Of a DNA stretch of 64,000 nt, positions 1 through 38,800 are shown one piece after another. Under the pieces are notes generated by a model, which saw only the letters and a list, made by a program, of their open reading frames with translations, was not told the origin of the DNA and ran no database searches. The translations under genes were made by a program, and so were the position numbers. The stretch is from the human T2T-CHM13v2.0 reference genome, Homo sapiens, in NCBI RefSeq assembly GCF_009914755.1, contig NC_060929.1; one strand, given 5' to 3'. Each line of letters begins with the position of its first letter. Position 1 is the first letter of the stretch.

Positions 1-480
1 TTTGAAGGCTTTACTCTACCATGTTCTAGCTTCTAGTTTTACTTCTGGGAAGTCTAATGTCATTTTGATTCTCGATCATTTATACAGGACATACTCTTAA
101 TTCTCTTTGGAAGCTTTAAGATCTGTTTTCCCAGTAACTGAAATGTCATCATATCATGACTTGGTATGAGTCATTTCTCACTTATGATGCTAGGCTCTGA
201 GAGAGCTCATTCAAGATGGAAACTTGTGCCTTTTACTTCAGAAATATTTATTGTTTTTGTCATTATTATTATAATCATTACTAAATTTTCTATATTCTCT
301 TTTTATTCTGCAAGTCCTGCTATTTGGATACTGGATATCTTACAATGATCCTCTAAATCACATACTTGGACTCTTCTATTTTCAACCTACCTGTTTTGGG
401 TTTTACTTTTTGAAATATATCTTCAATATTGTCTTCAAAAATTATATACAATTTTTTAACAGGTATCACATTTTTTGTTT
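1..480 (-). mobile_element. Old L1M fragment (antisense)
   Basis: T-rich degenerate sequence (gaagtctaatgtcattttgattc, gaagctttaagatctgttttc) typical of antisense old L1; boundaries approximate. Confidence 0.45.
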
Positions 481-559
481 TTCAAGAGTTATTTTATCTT
501 GTGATTTGCTTATTTCTTTTGTATAGATTTATGTTATTAAATAGATGTAATATTTTATA

Positions 560-615
560 TGTGCAGTGGGGTTTTGTGTATCAATTATACCTCAATAAAG
601 TTTTAAAAAAAGAAA
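560..615 (+). mobile_element. Old L1 3' terminus
   Basis: tcaattatacctcaataaagttttaaaaaaa matches the L1MC/L1ME-type 3' end with A tail. Confidence 0.55.
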
Positions 616-627
616 CTAGAAAAAATA

Positions 628-1692
628 CAGTTGACCCTTGAACAATGTAGGAGATTGGGAGGCTGACCCCCTGTGCAGTAGAACATCCACATATAACTTT
701 GTACTACCCCAAAACTTAACTACTAATAGCCTACTGTTGACTGGAAGGCTTACCCGTAACATAAACAGTCTATTAACACATTTTGTATGTTATGTGTACT
801 ATATATTGTATTCTTAAAATAGGCTAGAAAAAAGAAAATGTTATTAAAAATATCATAAGGAAGAGAAAACACATTTTTACATTACTGTATTGTATTTATC
901 CATACTGTAAGTTTATGTTGCCTATTTACAAGATACGTTGTCTATTTGCAATGGCAGGCAACCGCAGCTGCAAATCTTATCCATGATACCTATCAAGCAA
1001 TCCAACTTTGCCTAGTAATGTCATTACTTTTCTCTGCTTCTTGGGAGCACGTCTAGCATCACTAGAGGTACTTCGTATGGGTCCTATGTTGTTATTCAAG
1101 GTTTATGGCATTACACTATACATGAAAAATACACCAGAACCACAAGAGGTCACTTTTTACTGTGATTCACATTTTACTGGAGAGCTGAACTGCTCACAGG
1201 GAGATGATGAGCATCACATGGCATTTTAAGAGGATACTTGGCAACACTTGAGCTCATGGCAAAAGCAGCAGGAGGTGGCCACAAAATTATTACAGTAGTA
1301 CAGTATGTACTACAGTTAATTTTATACAGTTATGATTTAGTAATACTTTAGGTTTCTTTACATTTATGTTTCTTTACATTTCTCTTGACTGTGAATGGCA
1401 TCATGTACAGTCTGAGTGCATAAGTTTTAATAAATTTTAACTTTGGTAATGGATCTGTGCATGTTTTATGGTAGTAAATGATAAAATAGACTAATATCTA
1501 TGTATAATTTACACATTGATGTCACACATAATGCTTTCTTGTTTTTTTTTCTGTATTTTTAGCCAATGCAGTTTGTTTGCAAGTTTCTTCAAATTGTCAC
1601 AAATCTCCAAAAAATTTCCAATATATTTATGTAAAAAAATATGTATAAGGGGATTCATGCCATTCAAACTTGTGTTGTTCAAGGGTTAACTG
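628..1692 (-). mobile_element. Tigger2-family non-autonomous DNA transposon (Tigger2b-like, about 1.07 kb)
   Basis: TIRs cagttgacccttgaacaa (628) and ttgttcaagggttaactg (1692), TA target duplication on both sides. Confidence 0.9.
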
Positions 1693-1756
1693 TAGAGACC
1701 ATAATGGTCTAAAAAACACCTAACTTTCCATGTACTCATGAGTAGCTATCTGAAGA

Positions 1757-2337
1757 TTTGCTCCTTTTTAAAATTGAGTTATTGATTTTTTAAGTAATTC
1801 AGTTGTAGGAGTTTCTTATATATTTTGGAAACTAACTCCTTTTCACATATATGGTTTGCAAATATTTTCTCCCATTCCACATGTCAGTTGGTTCCTTTGC
1901 TGTGCAGAATCTTATTAGTTTTATATTGTCCCACTTAGTTATTTTTGTTTTTGTCTTCTGTGCTTTCAGTGTCCTGTCTATGAAATCATTGTCAAAACCC
2001 ATGTAGTGAAGGTTTTAGGTTTTATGTTTAAGGCTTTCATCCATTTCGAGTTGATTTTTGTATAAGGGTTCAATTTTATTATTTTGCCTGTGCATTATTT
2101 TATATGTATATTCTTTTGCAGTTTCCTTGGCACCATTTGTTGATGAGACTATGCTTTCCTCATTGCATATTCTTGGTACCCTTGTCAAAGATCAGTTGAC
2201 CATATATGCAACAGTTTATTTTGCGCTTTCTATTCATTTCCTTGGGTCTATATGCATGTCTTAATGCCAGTACCATACTATTTTGATTACTGTAGCCTTG
2301 TAATATATTTTGAAATCATTATGTGTGATGCCTCTAA
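1757..2337 (-). mobile_element. L1MA ORF2 segment, inverted 5' part of the element at 2338-3990
   Basis: Antisense ORF2 motifs (tttgcaaatattttctcccattc, gccagtaccatactattttgattactgtagc). Confidence 0.85.
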
Positions 2338-2373
2338 TGAGTTAAGGTCATGAATAGACATGTCCAAAGAAGA

Positions 2374-2746
2374 TGCATTAGTCCATTTTCCCACTGATAT
2401 AATGAACTTACTGATGCTGGGTACCTTATAAAGGAAAGAGGTTTCATTGACTCACATTTCTACATGGCTGGGGAGGCCTGAGGACATGTACAATGATGGT
2501 AGAAAGGAAAGCAGGTACATCTTACATGGTGGCAGGTGAGAGAGAGCGTGTGAAGGAGGAAGAGTTGAACACTTATAAAACTATCAGATCTCGTGAGAGC
2601 CCACTCACTATCACAAGAACAGTATGGGAGAAACTGCTCCTATGATCCAATCACCTCCCACCATGTCCCTCCCTTGAAACATGGGGATTGTGGGGAATAC
2701 AATTCGAGATGAGATTTGGGTGGGGACACAGAGCCAAACCATATCA
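2374..2746 (-). mobile_element. THE1D-like solo LTR (ERVL-MaLR)
   Basis: tgcattagtcc...ccaaaccatatca termini, 5 bp TSD gaaga. Confidence 0.88.
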
Positions 2747-3239
2747 GAAGATATACAAATAGCCAAGAGGTATGTGAAAAGTCATTAACATTGTTAATCA
2801 TCAGGGAAAGGCAAATCAAAACCATGATAAGATATCTCCTAACACCTGTCAGTATGGCTATTATCAAAAAACCAAAAGAAAACAAGTGTTGGTGATGAGA
2901 TGAAGAAATTTGGACTTTTGCATATTGTTGGTGGGAATGCAAAATGGTGCAGCTGCTGTGGAAAACAGTATGAGATTTCTCAAAAAAATAAAAATAGAAC
3001 TACCATATGATCCAGCAATCCTGCTTCTGTGTATTTACCCAGAAGAATAGAAATAATGATCTCAAAGAATATTAGCACTCTTTTGTTCATTGCCTTACAC
3101 AATAGTCAAGATGTGAAAACAACCTGAATGTCTATTGACAGATGACTGGATAAAGAAAATATAGCATATACATAGAATGGAATACTATTCAGCCTCAAAA
3201 AACAAGAAACTTCTGTTATATTCAACAATATGAACAAAT

Positions 3240-31279: not shown

Positions 31280-31573
31280 TTTTTTTTTTTTTTGAGACAG
31301 AGTCTTGCTCTGTCACCTGGGTTGGAGTGCAGTGGCCGAACCTTGGCTCACTGCAACCTCCACCTCCTAGGTTTAAGCAATTTTCTGCCTCAGCCTCCCG
31401 AGTAGTTGGGATTACAGGCGTCTGCCACCACACCCGGCTGATTTTTTGTATTTTTAGTAGAGATGGGGTTTTGTCCTCTTGGTAAGGCTGGCCTTGAACT
31501 CCTGACCTCATGATCCACCCACCTCCGCCTCCCAAAGTGCTGGGATTACAGGTGTAAGCCACCGCGCCCGGCC
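31280..31573 (-). mobile_element. AluS
   Basis: Antisense full dimer; TSD ttttgcctt. Confidence 0.92.
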
Positions 31574-31603
31574 TTGTTTTGCCTTCTTAAAAGGTGGCAT
31601 TCC

Positions 31604-31902
<299 letters not shown>

Positions 31903-32576
31903 AAAAGGTGGCATTCATGGCCTCTGGCAAAGAACGGTGAGTATCACCTTTATTCACATTATGTTGATCAGAACTCAGTATCCCTGTCCATTTTATGGAA
32001 AATGAGAAAATATTTTTCTACATGTGTAGGCATAGAAAATGATGTTATAAATACACACAACCTTCCACAGCAGAGTTATAGTGGTGAGAAAAACACAGAA
32101 AGAGAGGCTTGCAAATTCAAATGTGAATTTAGTCAATTTCAAGGAACATCTAGGATGGCTAATCTTGTATAAAAATGTAAACTTTAGAAACCACAGCTAC
32201 CTCATTCCATATGTATATGTTCTCTTAGTGTATTCCTTAGACCTACAAGTGTCTACTGCCCTTTTGATTGTGCCATCTTGTTAACTCTCAAACCTTATCC
32301 TTAGGAGAGATCTGATGTGCTCTTTTCTATTAAGGCATAGGAAAGTCACCATCAGGACTGTGACCAAGCATACTTCCCTACTTTTTCACATTCCTAAGAA
32401 GTACATAGCTAGAATTATGTGGCATTCCCTCAAGTAACATGAACTTAAGAGAATGCTACTTATTTTAAATCTGTAAAACAAAAGCAACCAAAAAATCATT
32501 TTATTTGCAGATTCTGTATGCTCTATAAATCTCGTATTTTACAAGCTCCTTTGGATCATGAAAATAACTTCCTAAA

Positions 32577-35500
32577 TGAAGAGTCTGCAAGGCCCCTGCC
32601 CACCTGCTCCTGAGAACACGCTCATCGCCTGCGGGCATCGCCTCCGCTCCCTGGAGCCTCCAGGAGATCTCTGACCCACCAGGGGCAGGGGAGGGCATTG
32701 GTGGGGGGCTGGGGGCATGCGCGGGGAGGCCGGGGCTGGGCCCAGGGGTGGCCGCCGGCCCCTTCTGTGTCTGGGGTGGGAGGGCTTTGGCAGGGCCCTT
32801 TTGGGGTGTGTGGCCCAACCCAGCCTGGGTGGTGCTACCCTGAGGGCCCGGGCAGTGCAGGGAGAGCCCAGGTCTGCAGGTGGGCCCTTGAGCAGCAGGT
32901 TTCATCATTCATTCATCCATTTAGTGGCTGTTTCCTGAAAAACCTCTGGGACTTCGCCCCAAACCTCCCGAGTCTTAGAGGGTAATGCAGCCGGAGATTG
33001 GCTGCTCCCAGGGCTGGAGTTCAGGGTAGGTGCAGTCAGCTCAGAGTCACCGCTGGGCAGTGAAGTCTGGGGAGACTTCCTGGAGGAGGTGGCATTGTCA
33101 CCGTGCCCCAAAGCATTTGAGCCCCTGGACTCGGGACCCCTCGCCGCCCAAGGGCCTTGCTGGCCATCACTCTTCTCCCCCACAGTTTGTGCTGTCCCAG
33201 AAGAGCACAGCTGTTGAAATGTGCTCCCCATCTCCCCTGACAAGCTCCACCATCTTGCCCCATCCTCCCCTGCCAGCCCCGCGGGGGCGTGTGGGACAGG
33301 ACACCCAAAAGTCCCTCTCCTTCCTGCCCTCAGCATCCCCTCTCAGCTCGTGCACACCAGAGGCTGGATCTGGAGGATGGGGCAGAGAGGCCTCCGGGTC
33401 CTGTTGTGGGGACGGCTGGCACCGGCCTTGGGCCTTCCCCGGGTGATCCCACTGAAGCACGTGGCCTTCTCTGACCCCATGCCTGACTGTGAATGGGTGA
33501 GGCTCTGAGGACCACAGAGACCTGTCCCTCAGGCCCTGCCCAGGCCCTGCCCATCCCTCCTGCCTGGGGCTCTGGGGCTGGGTCGGTGAGAGCAGATCGG
33601 GCAGTATCTGGGGAGTCCCAGCTCTGCCCTCAACTTGCCCTGAGGTGACAAAGCCTCGGCTGAAGAGGAGTGGGACCCACTGGGTCTGCAGTAGGTAAGG
33701 TCCAGGGCCCGACCACGCCTGGGGGCTGTCCCGGCTCCGGCCTCGGCCCGGGCCCCCCACCCCCCCGACCAAGCTGGCCTTCCTGCCTGCACCCATCTGG
33801 GTCTTGTGTGCCCCTGAGCTGGGGCAGTGCCCCCTGCCAGCATCCCAAGAACAGGAACGGACCGCAGAGGACCAGATGTGACTGCACAGGGGCCTGGACG
33901 CCAGCTTCTTCCCTCCCGCCTGCTTTCTCACCTGGAACCGTGGCCATCTCAGAGGAAATGGGCCTGTCTCCGGACTTTCTCACCCGCATCGCGGGGAGGG
34001 CCCTCTGGGCTGCCTGCAGTGCACCGTGTGTCCAGCAGGGGGCAAGCGCCCGGCCCCGGAGCCGCAGCCCACTTGGGGCCGCGCAGGGTCCTCGCCCGAC
34101 CTGTGTCTGAACACGCAGGAGCGGCCGGGCCAGGCAGTCCCAGCGCATTTTAATAGTGGAATGTAATTCCTGGGCAGCAGAAAAATGAAAGTGAGATCTA
34201 TGAATTATTACAAATGCTCTCAATCTGCTGTGCCGTGCAGCGGGGCCCTGGGCTGGAAAGCCTTTTTTTTCTCGTGTTTAAGTTGGCGTGGAAGATGAAA
34301 TAGTCACAGAGACACAGTGGCCCCTCCAAGCTGTTATTGCCAGCTGTGTGTTTCCTGTAAACACTTTTCTGATTTATAACCTCACTCTGCTTTATAAATG
34401 GAAAAACCAGAAATACCTTCAGGAGCAGCCTTTCACCGCCCAAGAGGCCTCTGCGTCTGCACGTGGCCGCCGGGGCAGGGTGCCGGGGCTTCTGGTCAGC
34501 CTTCCTTCCCAGGGCCAAGGCCTCCACCCAGGCCTGGCGCGAATGTGGGTCCTGGAAGGGTGACCCACGGTGCCTGTTTGCCTGGGACATACGGGGTTTC
34601 CAGAACTCGGGGTATTCGATGCAAACCTGGCAGTTTCCCGGCAAGCTGCTTCCCTGGACTCTGGCGGTTCTTCTTTTGGTCGACAGACGCTGTGGATGGG
34701 TTTTCTGTTTGTTTTGGAAGGAGAGGAGGTACTCAAACATCCGGCGATTGTCTTTGCTGGCCTGTGTCCGAGAGGGGAAGCTGATGCCCGTGGCTGGAGG
34801 ACCTCGTGTCGTACCTAGAGTCCCTTCAGGACGGCCGACTGCCAGCCATGGGCCACCCGGGAGCTCACCCCACAGCCCCGCCTCGGTGCCCACACCTGGG
34901 CCAGGTGGCCATGGGGTCCCCAGGCCTCGTGCAGTTGAGGGAAGGGACTCGCTGCAGCCTCCATGCTGGCGTCTGGCCTCAGAAAGAGGACACAGGAAAC
35001 GTTGGCCACTGACTCCTGATATCACAGTAACCCAGGGCGTCTGAGATGCTATCCTGTTCAATGGGGAACTGAGTCACTTGTCCCAAGTCCTGCAGTGACC
35101 CAGAGCCGTGCAGGTCCAACCCGGAGCAACAGAGCCCTTGGAGCAGGCGGTGTGGATGGCGGCCCCGTCACAGCCAGGATGCGGGGTCAGCTGGGGTGTG
35201 GGTTGTCAGCATACTGGGGTTGCCTAGGGTTATTTGGGGAGTGGGTTGTCAGTGTCCTGGGGTTGTCTAGGATTGTCTGGGGTGTGGGTTGTCAGTGTTC
35301 CAGGGTTATTCTGGGTGTGGGTGTGGGTTTTCAGTGCCTCGGGGTTGTCTGGGGTGTGGACTGTCAGTGTTCTGGGGTCGTCTGGGGTCTGGGGTGTGGG
35401 TTGTCAATGCCCTGGAGTTTCCTGGGGCGTTGCCTCCTCTCCCCGGGGCAGATCTTCGTAACATCAGGAATTCGCAGGCACATGTGTCTGGGCGTTGGGA

Positions 35501-35603
35501 AGCAAACAGTCTGTGCACAGTCTGTGCTGGATTTGCTCTGCGGATTCTTGAATTATCTGGAGAATACGAGCTTCCTGAAAAAATAATAATAAAAAAATAA
35601 AAA
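32577..35603 (+). pseudogene. Retrotransposed GC-rich non-TE sequence (retrocopy or orphan transduction), source unidentified
   Basis: Perfect TSD aaaataacttcctaaa at 32561-32576 and 35604-35619; A-rich tail 35578-35603; abrupt GC switch (50/60 GC in line 33721 versus 14/60 in line 32461). Confidence 0.92.
35190..35427. repeat. G-rich minisatellite (ggggtgtgggttgtcagtgt...ggggttgtct units)
   Basis: About 6 degenerate units of 33-43 bp inside the retrocopy. Confidence 0.85.
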
Positions 35604-35822
35604 AAAATAACTTCCTAAAGAAAGAGACATAAAGAGAAGACAAAGCAGACTGACTATGAATAAATCACAATCTTAATTAATATTTGTTTTCTTTAAATAT
35701 TCTTTACAGGAAAGTTATTTTCCAAGTTTTCTCATCAGAACTTGCAACAATGATGACATGCATCACTGAGAAATCAAGAGATGGAGAATAAAATTTTTCT
35801 TTGTGTTTGAAAATTACCTTTA

Positions 35823-38800
35823 TGAAAATTAAATTACACACTTTTTAATATCCGGTGGATTAAAAAAGAAACCAAAAAGGAAACAAAAAATTTTTTGAGA
35901 CAAATGAAAATGGAAACACAGCATGTCAAAACTCAAGGGGTGCAGCAAAAGCAGATCTAAGAAGGAAGTCTATAGCAATAAATGACCACATTAAGAGAGA
36001 AAAAAGATCTTAAACAACCTACCTTTACACCTTAAAGAACTAGAAAAAAAAAAAACTAAGCCCAAATTCACCAGAAAGAAAAAATAATCATAAATATTAG
36101 AGGAGAAATAAATAAAATGGAGACTAGAAAAATAATAGATCAATAAAACTGTGTTTTCTGAAAATACAAACAAAATTAGCAAACCTTTAGATAAACTAAG
36201 AAGAGAAGAGAGAAGATTTAAAGAAATAAGATAAAAAATTAAAGAAGAGACAATCCAACTGATTCCACAGAAATAAAAAAGATCGTAAGAGGCTATGATC
36301 AACTATGAACAATTATATGCTGTAAACTGGATAATCTAAAAGAAATGGGTAAATTTCTAAAAACACAGGTTACCAAGACAGAATCATGAAGACAAAGAAA
36401 ATCTTAACAGACTAATGATGAGTAAGGGAATTAAGTAATCAAAAACCTCCAAAAAAGAAAAGCCCCATAATTCATGGCTTCACTGGTGAATTCTACAAAA
36501 CAGTTAAAAAATAAGTAACATCAATCCTTCTAAAACTCATCCAAAAAATTAAAAAGAAGAGAACATGTCCAAACTTATTATATTAGGCCTTTATCACGCT
36601 GATATCAAAACCAGACAAAAACACTACAAGAAAAGAAAATTATAAGCCAATATTCCTGATAAACATCATTGATGCAAAAATCCTCAACAAAATATTAGCA
36701 AACTGAATTCAACAGCATGTTAAAAGGATTATACACCATGATCAAGTAGGATTTTCCCTGGGATGTAAGGATATTTTAATGTATGCAAATCAATAAGTAT
36801 GATTACACCATATGGATGGAATAAAGAAAAAATCCTATGATTTTTTCTGCAATAGATGCAGAAAAAACATTTGACACAGTTCAACATCCTTTCATGAAAA
36901 AAACTGTTAACAAATTAGGTATAGAAAGAATGTACCTCAGCATAACAGAGGCCACATATGACAGGCCCACAGTGAACATTATACTCAATGGTGAAAAGCT
37001 TTCAGCTTCCTCTAAGATAAGGAACAAGATGAGGATGCCCAATCTTATCACTTCTATTTAATGAAGTACTGAAGGCAAGAAAAAGAAACAAAATGCTCCA
37101 AATTGGAAAGAAATAAAGTTGTCTCTGCAGATGATATAATCTTATACATAAAAACCTTAATGCTCCACCAATAAAATGGTTAGAACTAATTAACAAATTC
37201 AGTGAAGTTGTACAATACAAAATCAACAGTGTGTTTGATTTTAATGTTTCTGTATACTACCAATGAACTACCCAAAAGAGAAATTTTAAAAAAATGCTAT
37301 TTCCAATAGCTTCACAAAAATACAAATAAGTTTAACTGAGGCAGAGAAATATCTGTATAATGAAAACCGTAAAACATTGATTAAAAAATTGATGAAGACA
37401 CAAATAAGTGGAAAGATATCCTATATCCATAGATTGGATGAATCAATATTGTTAAAACATCTGCACTGCCAGGTACAGAAAGACAAATGTTGCATGTTCT
37501 CACTTATTTGTGGGATCTAAAAATCAAAACAATTGCATACACAGAGAGAGAGAATAGAAGGATGGTTACCAGAGGCTGGAAAGGGTAGTGGATGGGGGTA
37601 AGTGGATACGGTTAATGGGTGCAAAAAATTAGTTGTAAAAAATGAAGACCTAGTATTTCATAGCACAATAGAGTGACTATAGTCAATAATAATTTAGTTA
37701 TACATTTTAAAATAGCTAAAAGTTATTTAGTTATTTACAAACTGGGCTGTTTGTAACACAAAGGATAGTTGTTTAAGGAAATGAATATCCCATTTTCCAT
37801 AGAGTGGTTAGTACACATTGCATGCCTGTGTCAAAACATCTCATGTACCCCCAAAATACATACACTTACTACGTACTCACAAAAATTAAAAATTAAAAAA
37901 ATAAAGAAAAATTCCTGTACTATCCAAAGCAATCTACAGATTAAATGTGATTCCTATCAAAATTCTAGTGATTTTTCCACGAAAATAGAAAAGAAATCCA
38001 AAATTCATATAGAACCACAAAAGATCCCAAATAGCCAAAGCAATCTTAAACAAGAAGAACAAAGCTGCAGGCATCGCCCTACCTGATTTCAAAACATACT
38101 ACAAGGCAATAGTATCAAAACTACATAGTATTGGCATAAAAACAGACTCATAGACCAAAGCAACAGAATAGAGAGCCCAGAAATAAATTCATGCATTTAC
38201 AGTCAAATGATCTTCAGCAAAGGTGCCAAGAATACACAAGGAGGGAAAGGGCAATCTCTTCAATAAGTAGTGATGGGAAAACTGGAAATCCACATGCAGA
38301 AGAATGAAATCGATCCATATTTCACAATACATACAAAAATCAACTCAAAATGAGTGAAAGACATAAATGTAAAACCAAAAACTGTAAAACTACTGAAAAA
38401 AAAACATAGGAGAATAGCTCCACATCATTTTTATGAAAAAAAAAAAAAAAAAAAAAAAAAAAAACAAAAAAACCATAGGGGAATAGCTCCATGTCATTTT
38501 TATGGGCACTGATTTTTTTGGATGTGACCCAAAAAGCACAGGAAATAAAAGCAAAAGTAGACAAATGGGATTACATCAAACTAACAAGCTTCTGCACAGC
38601 AAGGGAAACAATAAACTGTTTGAAGGGATCACCTATGGGATGGATGAAAATATTTGCAAACCATACATCTGATAAGGGGATAATATGCAAAATACATAAG
38701 AAATTCAAATGACTCAATAGAAAGAAAACAAATAACCTGGTTTAAAAACTGGTAAAGGATCTCAATGGGTATTTTTCAAAAGAAGACAAATGGCCAAAAG

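What the first reader, a model, noticed from the sequence alone, without database searches (positions are those of the whole stretch)
32561..35619. Young 3 kb GC/CpG-rich orphan retro-insertion with no TE body and no clear CDS
Seen in sequence: perfect 16 bp TSD, an L1-endonuclease-like site (tg/aaaa), an A-rich tail, and a very GC-rich body with many intact CpGs in AT-rich surroundings. It is not Alu, L1 or SVA. Its overlapping ORFs on both strands look like GC artefacts, and it contains a (cattc)n tract and a minisatellite, as intronic or long-UTR DNA would. No canonical AATAAA precedes the tail. Inference: recent L1-mediated retrotransposition of an unspliced transcript, a 3' UTR, or an orphan 3' transduction from a GC-rich locus; it may be hominid-specific or polymorphic.
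Basis: partly seen in the sequence, partly recalled or inferred. Interest (0 to 1): 0.8.

Follow-up and report, generated by a model that had tools for sequence, protein, structure and literature searches.

The report
Old retrocopy of chr4 noncoding transcript
This 3 kb GC-rich block is an L1-made DNA copy of an unspliced, apparently noncoding RNA from chromosome 4p16.3, inserted into chromosome 5 probably over ten million years ago; it is an ordinary kind of event, notable mainly for carrying enhancer-like sequence.

Summary
A perfect 16-nt duplication (32561-32576 and 35604-35619) sits at a TG/AAAA nick site. It brackets a 3,002-nt body with GC 0.62 and a 25-nt A-rich tail, in DNA of GC 0.31-0.40.

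The donor is now known: chr4:1,544,917-1,547,927, minus strand, in the same assembly. It aligns as one colinear block with no intron-sized gap. Homology stops exactly where the tail starts. In the donor, a GU/U-rich stretch follows that point, as at a real cleavage and polyadenylation site. So this is an L1-mediated retrocopy of a polyadenylated, unspliced transcript end, probably truncated at its 5' end.

It is not young. Of 2,964 aligned bases 125 differ (4.2%), or 2.4-2.7% outside CpG sites. By recalled primate divergences that suggests roughly 10-20 million years, so a polymorphic insertion is unlikely.

The 30 kb upstream of the donor show no L1 or SVA, which argues against an orphan 3' transduction. 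No coding signal was found: 0 of 9 ORFs match Pfam.

The donor lies in a gene-poor stretch at least 104 kb downstream of the FAM53A coding exon. Ape genomes, transcript data and repeat annotation were not available. This is an ordinary kind of element. Its one modest point of interest is that the copy carries enhancer-like sequence and overlaps a RefSeq enhancer feature.

The parts
32559..32564 (.). L1 endonuclease-type nick site, TG/AAAA on the top strand (5'-TTTT/CA-3' on the bottom strand)
   Evidence: the TTAAAA consensus overlapping the 5' TSD is described in PMC2831318 (passages)
32561..32576 (+). 5' target-site duplication, AAAATAACTTCCTAAA. Its last 3 nt (AAA, 32574-32576) also match the donor, so this is microhomology at the 5' junction and the TSD is 13-16 nt
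   Evidence: (D4)
32577..35578 (+). Retrocopy body, 3,002 nt, colinear with chr4:1,544,917-1,547,927 minus strand
   Evidence: 93% over query 1-3001; one HSP, 3,050 columns, 125 mismatches, 14 gap openings; 125 of 2,964 aligned bases differ; largest gap 33 nt
33744..34255 (.). RefSeq 'enhancer' feature (hub annotation; its evidence type is unknown to me). It differs from the donor at 18 of 511 aligned sites
   Evidence: hub annotation in the finding
34140..34420 (.). AT-rich core inside the GC-rich body that looks like a conserved noncoding element. It occurs only here and in the donor (95%), with a weak sub-threshold Rfam match to DLG2-AS1_2
35191..35419 (+). G/T-rich minisatellite, period about 40-43, about 5.7 copies. 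It was copied from the donor and holds the largest indel (33 nt) between the two
   Evidence: (D1); distant arrays on chr12
35579..35603 (+). Degraded poly(A) tail, 25 nt (21 A, 4 T). It begins exactly where donor homology ends
35604..35619 (+). 3' target-site duplication

Best explanation
A polyadenylated RNA polymerase II transcript was made from the minus strand of chr4p16.3 and ended at chr4:1,544,917 in this assembly. It was unspliced over at least its last 3 kb and has no detectable coding capacity. L1 ORF2p captured it in trans. The enzyme nicked chr5 at 5'-TTTT/CA-3', primed on the poly(A) tail and reverse-transcribed about 3 kb. The cDNA was joined at its 5' end through a 3-nt microhomology, leaving a 13-16 nt target-site duplication. 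This is the processed-pseudogene pathway applied to a noncoding, intronless template. The insertion is middle-aged, roughly 10-20 My, which is an inference from divergence. It has since decayed at about the same rate as its donor. Shown here: the donor, colinearity, the junctions, the tail and TSD, the divergence, and the absence of L1 or SVA upstream in this assembly. Inferred: the identity of the transcript, 5' truncation rather than a true transcription start, the age in years, and any present function.
For: The genome search returned 5 matches. They were self, chr4 (93% over all 3,001 nt) and three 69% minisatellite matches on chr12. The alignment is one colinear HSP. It has 14 small indels, the largest 33 nt and inside the minisatellite, so no intron was removed. 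Homology ends at ...GCTTCCTGA, followed by the tail. The donor continues TGAAAAGTGTGATTTTGTGTT, which is GU/U-rich like a downstream cleavage element. The donor also has AATACA ending 10 nt before the cleavage point; the naming of this as a variant signal is recalled. At the 5' junction the donor and the target share AAA. The TSD is far beyond chance. The TSD of about 15 nt, the tail of 5-30 nt and the TTAAAA-like site fit the published signatures (PMC2831318, passages). Rfam found no known RNA family above threshold in the donor or the copy. Of the 9 ORFs in the insert, 0 match Pfam. The 3 kb just upstream of the donor has no second copy apart from a 66% minisatellite-like match on chr21, and the body has no third copy, so this was a single event. 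CpG-to-TpG/CpA losses are symmetric, 18 in the copy and 23 in the donor, p=0.53.
Against: No canonical AATAAA or ATTAAA is present in either copy. The retrocopy reads AATACG where the donor reads AATACA. Because CpG sites mutate fast, the ancestral hexamer may not have been a signal at all. No transcript, cap site or promoter for the donor was seen, as no expression or annotation data were available. The sequence just upstream of the donor's 5' end is neither a CpG island nor TATA-like. A 3-nt microhomology is weak evidence, with a chance of about 1 in 64 at uniform base composition, and higher for AAA at an A-rich site. A source L1 that was polymorphic and has since been lost cannot be excluded from one assembly.
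Confidence: 0.75

Rival explanations
1. Orphan 3' transduction. An L1 (or SVA) that once lay upstream of the chr4 segment read through its own poly(A) signal and was polyadenylated at chr4:1,544,917. Severe 5' truncation then left only flanking sequence in the chr5 insertion.
For: The structure itself would look identical: unique sequence only, a poly(A) tail, a TSD and an EN site. Orphan transductions are defined as unique DNA downstream of an active L1 that is mobilised without the L1 (PMC7058536, passages). A weak or non-canonical poly(A) site is typical of read-through ends (recalled).
Against: The 30 kb upstream of the donor in the sense direction (chr4:1,547,928-1,577,927) have GC 0.52-0.74 in every 1-kb bin. 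Only short stretches, none longer than about 450 nt, fall below GC 0.48; the one I examined (L006 about 2470-2880) is unique in the genome. There is no run of 10 or more T on the plus strand and no CCCTCT or AGAGGG array. Of 111 ORFs of at least 120 aa from L002, L006, L007 and L009, 0 hit a reverse transcriptase, endonuclease or L1 ORF1 family. Six of the 111 had some hit, all repeat or low-complexity artefacts or the Alu-linked DUF5559. The only interspersed repeats seen are two Alu-like SRP matches 8-9 kb upstream. The transduced piece would also have to start at least 3 kb from the L1.
Confidence: 0.12
2. A 5'-truncated retrocopy of the long 3' UTR or terminal exon of a spliced gene. This could be an unannotated gene or lncRNA, or very long read-through from FAM53A on the same strand. 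It is a sub-case of the best explanation that differs only in the identity of the transcript.
For: The donor is on the same strand as FAM53A. Long mRNAs often give copies limited to their 3' end (PMC2831318, abstract and passages). The junction microhomology suggests truncation. CpG-rich bins (o/e 0.56-0.77, GC 0.61-0.74) lie 27-30 kb upstream at chr4:1,574,917-1,577,916 and could be a promoter.
Against: The FAM53A coding exon is 104 kb away. No Pfam-recognisable exon lies in the 30 kb upstream. No gene table for chr4 was available to me.
Confidence: 0.1
3. A DNA-level interchromosomal segmental duplication, or a very recent or polymorphic insertion whose divergence is inflated by alignment error.
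For: At 93-96% identity over 3 kb the pair would meet the usual segmental-duplication thresholds (recalled definition). The minisatellite inflates the mismatch count: 16 of 256 sites there against 100 of 2,576 before it.
Against: The tail starts exactly at the end of homology. The TSD and EN site are present, and the donor has neither a tail nor the TSD. Leaving out the minisatellite still gives 3.9% at all sites and 2.4% at non-CpG sites.
Confidence: 0.02

Closest known systems
L1-mediated processed pseudogenes and retrocopies, including the 5'-truncated, 3'-end-only 'short pseudogenes' of Terai et al. (PMC2831318)
   Same: A poly(A) tail directly after the copied RNA end, a TSD of about 15 nt, a TTAAAA-like nick site, loss of the 5' part of the template, and microhomology at the 5' join.
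   Different: The template is not a known mRNA. It shows no coding signal and no spliced-out intron, so the usual hallmark of 'processing' is absent. At 3 kb it is much longer than the 691-nt median reported there.
Orphan L1 3' transductions (PMC7058536)
   Same: Unique non-TE sequence with a tail, a TSD and an EN site, and no TE body.
   Different: No source L1 lies upstream of the donor in this assembly. The event is old and in the germline, not somatic.
Interchromosomal segmental duplication
   Same: Two unique copies of at least 1 kb and at least 90% identity on different chromosomes.
   Different: RNA-mediated: the tail, TSD and nick site are present only at the chr5 copy.

Membership tests
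L1-mediated (TPRT) retrocopy made in trans | Target-site duplication flanking the insert | tested here: met
   A perfect 16-nt repeat; 2 matches in the window against a shuffle mean of 0.01
L1-mediated (TPRT) retrocopy made in trans | Poly(A) tail that starts exactly where homology to the source ends and is absent from the source | tested here: met
   A 25-nt tail (21 A). The donor continues with TGAAAAGTGTG...
L1-mediated (TPRT) retrocopy made in trans | Nick site resembling 5'-TTTT/AA-3' at the 5' edge of the TSD | tested here: met
   TG/AAAA on the top strand, which is TTTT/CA on the bottom strand; 5 of 6 consensus positions
L1-mediated (TPRT) retrocopy made in trans | A separate parental locus lacking these signatures | tested here: met
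   chr4:1,544,917-1,547,927 (-), the only other copy in the genome
Processed pseudogene in the strict sense | Introns of the parent removed | tested here: not met
   The donor is colinear and the largest gap is 33 nt
Processed pseudogene in the strict sense | The parent is a protein-coding mRNA | tested here: inconclusive
   0 of 9 insert ORFs and no donor ORF hit a real domain family. A pure 3' UTR would look the same, and no chr4 gene table was available.
Orphan L1/SVA 3' transduction | Source L1 or SVA in sense orientation immediately upstream of the transduced segment | tested here: not met
   None in the 30 kb upstream in this assembly. Lost or non-reference elements could not be tested.
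Known TE family (Alu, L1, SVA, ERV) | Many dispersed copies, or TE protein or RNA signatures | tested here: not met
   Two copies in the genome; no Rfam or Pfam TE signal inside
CpG island | CpG o/e of at least 0.6 with GC of at least 0.5 (recalled criterion) | tested here: not met
   GC 0.617 but o/e 0.39 in both the copy and the donor

The most novel reading that the evidence does not exclude
The source RNA was a long, unspliced, polyadenylated transcript running through an enhancer in the chr4p16.3 gene-poor regulatory landscape. That landscape lies downstream of FAM53A, and by recall between NKX1-1 and FAM53A. The same wider domain holds the validated forebrain enhancer hs526/HAR104. On this reading, retroposition duplicated a working regulatory element into the PARP8-ISL1 desert on chr5, where RefSeq now records an enhancer (33744-34255). 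This would be an RNA-mediated enhancer duplication specific to apes.
Probability: 0.12. Interest if true: 0.55.

Novelty: new member of a known kind. Interest (0 to 1): 0.27.

Why it matters
The finding resolves an odd GC/CpG-rich island in an AT-rich gene desert as a dated, single-event retrocopy with an identified donor. Three things give it practical value. (1) The pair is a clean case of L1 copying a noncoding, intronless host transcript. Retrocopy catalogues built from mRNA parents would miss this class. (2) The two copies form a natural experiment for comparing decay of the same sequence in a GC-rich subtelomeric setting and an AT-rich interstitial one. So far CpG loss (18 vs 23) and strong/weak base changes (57 vs 49) are symmetric. 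(3) An enhancer annotation falls inside a retrocopy. That raises two possibilities: regulatory sequence was moved by RNA, or the annotation reflects sequence properties inherited from the donor. None of this is surprising to a specialist.

Tried and rejected
I took the hs526 coordinates (hg19 chr4:1,613,479-1,614,106) from Table 1 of PMC5952923.
- That is not the donor by coordinates, being about 66 kb off. No call converts hg19 positions to this assembly, so the distance is approximate.
- Two query-syntax errors were corrected and resent.

**Checks that led nowhere**
- The bacterial promoter and terminator scan has no bearing on a human locus and is disregarded.
- The Rfam match of 34161-34417 (-) to DLG2-AS1_2 scores 28 bits against a gathering score of 70. 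E is 0.0018 in the 5-kb search and 0.0002 in the 601-nt search.
  - The model has no base pairs and the alignment is gappy.
  - The donor search did not list the match at E<=0.1.
  - I treat it as chance, or at most a trace of a shared ancient repeat.
- Searching the flanks for paralogous 'empty sites' failed. The left flank is unique. The right-flank matches begin at least 203 nt past the TSD, in an old dispersed repeat.
- Literature searches for retrocopies of lncRNAs or unspliced transcripts gave nothing specific. No search for this locus as a described retrocopy was possible by coordinates.

**Considered and rejected**
- SVA VNTR identity for the 37- and 38-nt minisatellites upstream of the donor. 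I rejected it because there are no hexamer arrays, the first array sits in a bin with 5 CpG per kb, and the units do not resemble the SVA VNTR as I recall it.
- A coding reading of the overlapping ORFs.
Full report
**1. The observation**

- Reading 32300-35900 shows AAAATAACTTCCTAAA at 32561-32576 and again at 35604-35619.
- The repeat finder reports the pair as family D4. A pattern search finds exactly these 2 matches in 64 kb with up to 1 mismatch allowed. In 100 shuffles the mean was 0.01, and 0 shuffles reached 2.
- The bases before the first copy are TG, so the top strand reads TG/AAAA, which is 5'-TTTT/CA-3' on the bottom strand.
- The second copy is preceded by a 25-nt A-rich tail, 35579-35603, with 21 A and 4 T.
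- The body 32577-35578 has GC 0.617 and 111 CpG (o/e 0.39). The 3-kb flanks have GC 0.395 and 0.308, with 28 and 9 CpG. The body holds 111 of the window's 474 CpG (profile).
- A minisatellite of period about 40-43 lies at 35191-35419.
- The '(cattc)n' tract is only about 20 nt, and TRF did not report it.
- Nine ATG ORFs of at least 80 aa lie on the two strands, and 0 of 9 match Pfam at E<=0.01.

**2. The donor**

- A search of the window's own assembly with 32577-35577 returned 5 matches. They were the query itself, chr4:1,544,917-1,547,924 minus strand (93% over query 1-3001), and three 69% matches of the minisatellite to arrays at chr12:132.46 Mb.
- blastn gives a single HSP: window 32574-35578 against chr4:1,547,927-1,544,916, with 3,050 columns, 125 mismatches and 14 gap openings.
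- A global MAFFT alignment gives 2,839 matches and 125 mismatches, which is 95.8% substitution identity. There are 14 indel events, the largest being 33 nt inside the minisatellite and two of 11 nt.
- There is no intron-sized gap, so the copied stretch is contiguous genomic sequence.
- The AT-rich core alone (34130-34430) also finds only itself and the chr4 locus, at 95%.

**3. The junctions**

- At the 3' end, homology runs to ...GCTTCCTGA and the tail begins there.
- The donor continues TGAAAAGTGTGATTTTGTGTTATG. It has no A-run that could explain internal priming. It does have a GU/U-rich stretch within about 25 nt, the usual position of a downstream element of a cleavage and polyadenylation site (established knowledge, recalled).
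- Neither copy has AATAAA or ATTAAA. The donor has AATACA ending 10 nt before the cleavage point, a hexamer I recall as one of the minor poly(A)-signal variants. The retrocopy reads AATACG there, so the ancestral state is uncertain.
- At the 5' end, homology begins at AAATGAAGAG. The AAA is also the last 3 nt of the TSD. This gives a 3-nt microhomology, so the true TSD is 13-16 nt.
- The chr4 copy has no tail and no TSD, which fixes the direction as chr4 to chr5.
- These are the published signatures of L1-mediated retroposition: a tail of 5-30 nt, a TSD peaking near 15 nt, a TTAAAA-like site overlapping the 5' TSD, and frequent loss of the 5' part (PMC2831318, abstract and passages).

**4. Age**

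| Region | All sites | Non-CpG sites |
|---|---|---|
| Whole body | 125 of 2,964 (4.2%; JC 4.3%) | 72 of 2,690 (2.7%) |
| Before the minisatellite | 100 of 2,576 (3.9%) | 55 of 2,330 (2.4%) |

- Paralogue divergence accumulates on both copies, so it can be compared with species divergences.
- From memory, and not from any call, human-chimpanzee divergence is about 1.2%, human-orangutan about 3% and human-macaque about 6.5%, with non-CpG values somewhat lower.
- That places the event near or somewhat before the great-ape ancestor. I put it at roughly 10-20 My. The uncertainty is wide because subtelomeric GC-rich DNA evolves faster.
- Of about 123 inferred ancestral CpGs, 82 are shared. The copy lost 18 by transition and the donor lost 23. 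This is symmetric (p=0.53), as is the strong/weak base exchange, 57 vs 49 (p=0.50).
- The 'many intact CpGs' therefore reflect moderate age and a CpG-rich source. They do not indicate youth.
- At this divergence a perfect 16+16 nt TSD is expected about 65-68% of the time.
- An insertion this diverged is very unlikely to be polymorphic. 'Hominid-specific' is plausible, but no primate genome was available to test it.

**5. What lies around the donor**

I fetched chr4:1,534,917-1,577,927.

- Every 1-kb bin has GC 0.52-0.74. Only short stretches, none longer than about 450 nt, fall below GC 0.48.
- I looked at one such stretch, 2.4-2.9 kb upstream of the donor. It is unique in the genome and looks like another conserved noncoding island.
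- Rfam at E<=0.1 over the 46 kb of loci L002 and L006-L009 (which overlap) gave 4 matches. All fall in two Alu-like places 8-9 kb upstream.
- TRF found minisatellites of period 37 and 38 upstream.
- There is one A or T run of at least 10 nt, which is the tail of the plus-strand Alu. There is no CCCTCT or AGAGGG array.
- I scanned 111 stop-to-stop ORFs of at least 120 aa from L002, L006, L007 and L009. L008, downstream of the donor, was not scanned.
  - Six of the 111 had a Pfam hit at E<=0.01: Mucin-like, MF_alpha, Spt5 CTD repeat (twice), Gag_p6 with Mucin-like and DUF2080, GndA, and DUF5559.
  - All sit in tandem-repeat or Alu sequence, and most had no stretch passing on its own.
  - None was a reverse transcriptase, an endonuclease or L1 ORF1.
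- So no L1 or SVA lies within 30 kb upstream in this assembly. That disfavours an orphan 3' transduction as defined in PMC7058536 (passages). A source element that has since been lost cannot be excluded.
- The 3 kb directly upstream of the donor has no second copy except a 66% minisatellite-like match on chr21. Since the body has no third copy either, no other retrocopy of this transcript end is seen.
- The FAM53 family search places the large FAM53A coding exon at chr4:1,652,216-1,652,986 (-), 104 kb upstream on the same strand.
- By recall, NKX1-1 lies on the other side, so the donor sits in the NKX1-1-FAM53A gene-poor interval.
- That wider domain contains the validated forebrain enhancer hs526/HAR104 (PMC3826498, table passage). 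Its coordinates are hg19 chr4:1,613,479-1,614,106 (PMC5952923, Table 1).
- By coordinates hs526 is not the donor. No call converts hg19 to this assembly, so the distance of about 66 kb is approximate.

**6. Mechanism and its rivals**

- Best reading (0.75): L1 ORF2p acted in trans on a polyadenylated, unspliced, apparently noncoding Pol II transcript end. The cDNA was truncated at the 5' end and joined by microhomology.
- Rivals:
  - orphan L1/SVA transduction (0.12);
  - the long terminal exon or 3' UTR of a spliced, unannotated gene or lncRNA, or far read-through from FAM53A (0.10; this differs only in the name of the transcript);
  - a DNA-level duplication or a very recent event (0.02; refuted).
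- Not shown: the transcript itself, its start, and any function of the copy.

**7. Comparison with known kinds, and novelty**

- The element meets the tested features of an L1-mediated trans retrocopy: TSD, tail, nick site and a parental locus.
- It fails the strict processed-pseudogene feature of intron removal, and its parent is not a known mRNA.
- It fails the defining feature of an orphan transduction in this assembly.
- It is a new member of a known kind. mRNA-based retrocopy catalogues would miss it, though by the usual thresholds (recalled) it would appear as a 3-kb interchromosomal segmental duplication.
- My literature searches for retrocopies of lncRNAs or unspliced transcripts found nothing specific. 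That is a statement about those two searches only.

**8. The boldest reading not excluded**

- The RefSeq enhancer feature (33744-34255) lies within the copy and overlaps the start of an AT-rich core (34140-34420) that looks like a conserved noncoding element.
- That core differs from the donor at 11 of 280 sites. This is no less than the rest of the body, so there is no sign of constraint.
- If the donor element is a working enhancer and the copy kept that activity, this would be an RNA-mediated enhancer duplication (probability about 0.12).
- The only Rfam match inside the body, DLG2-AS1_2 at 28 bits against a gathering score of 70, is too weak to use.

**Verdict.** 'Young' or 'polymorphic' is not supported. 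This is an ordinary class of event, with interest 0.27.

Noticed in passing
window 34161-34417 (-): There is a weak Rfam match to DLG2-AS1_2 (a lncRNA conserved region; the model has no base pairs). It scores 28 bits against a gathering score of 70, with E 0.0018 in the 5-kb search. It covers the AT-rich core and may be chance or a trace of a shared ancient repeat. It was not listed for the donor at E<=0.1.
   Followed up: partly
window 35806-36250: An old dispersed repeat begins about 200 nt after the 3' TSD. The search found 2,879 first-look candidates and scored 40, one of them the query itself and the rest at 72-77% identity. The insertion point itself and the left flank (31950-32576) are unique in the genome.
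   Followed up: partly
window 31500-31885: Alu-like Metazoa_SRP sub-threshold matches, with the associated mir-1268 and mir-3135 model matches, lie about 700 nt upstream of the insertion. This agrees with the masked stretch 31617-31910 in the hub annotation.
   Followed up: no
L002:63-1323 (chr4:1,543,479-1,544,739), just downstream of the donor's poly(A) site: Long ORFs open in several frames give Pfam hits to repeat families: Spt5 CTD nonapeptide repeat at 103 bits, Mucin-like, and a 10-residue Gag_p6 match. This looks like a short-period tandem array read as protein and not a gene.
   Followed up: no
L006:2470-2880 (chr4:~1,550,400-1,550,800): An AT-rich island of about 400 nt (GC 0.37-0.45) sits in GC-rich surroundings 2.4-2.9 kb upstream of the donor. 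It is unique in the genome and looks like a conserved noncoding element. Similar short AT-rich islands lie near chr4:1,554,567-1,555,016, 1,569,417-1,570,616 and 1,577,067-1,577,516.
   Followed up: partly
L003-L005 (chr12:132,463,498-132,463,978): Arrays about 69% similar to the G/T-rich minisatellite of the insert (35180-35400) lie in distal chr12q. This suggests a dispersed subtelomeric minisatellite family.
   Followed up: no
L009:7000-10000 (chr4:1,574,917-1,577,927): This is the most CpG-rich part of the fetched donor region, with o/e 0.56-0.77 and GC up to 0.74. It lies 27-30 kb upstream of the donor on the transcribed strand and could be a promoter island. It was not examined further.
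   Followed up: no
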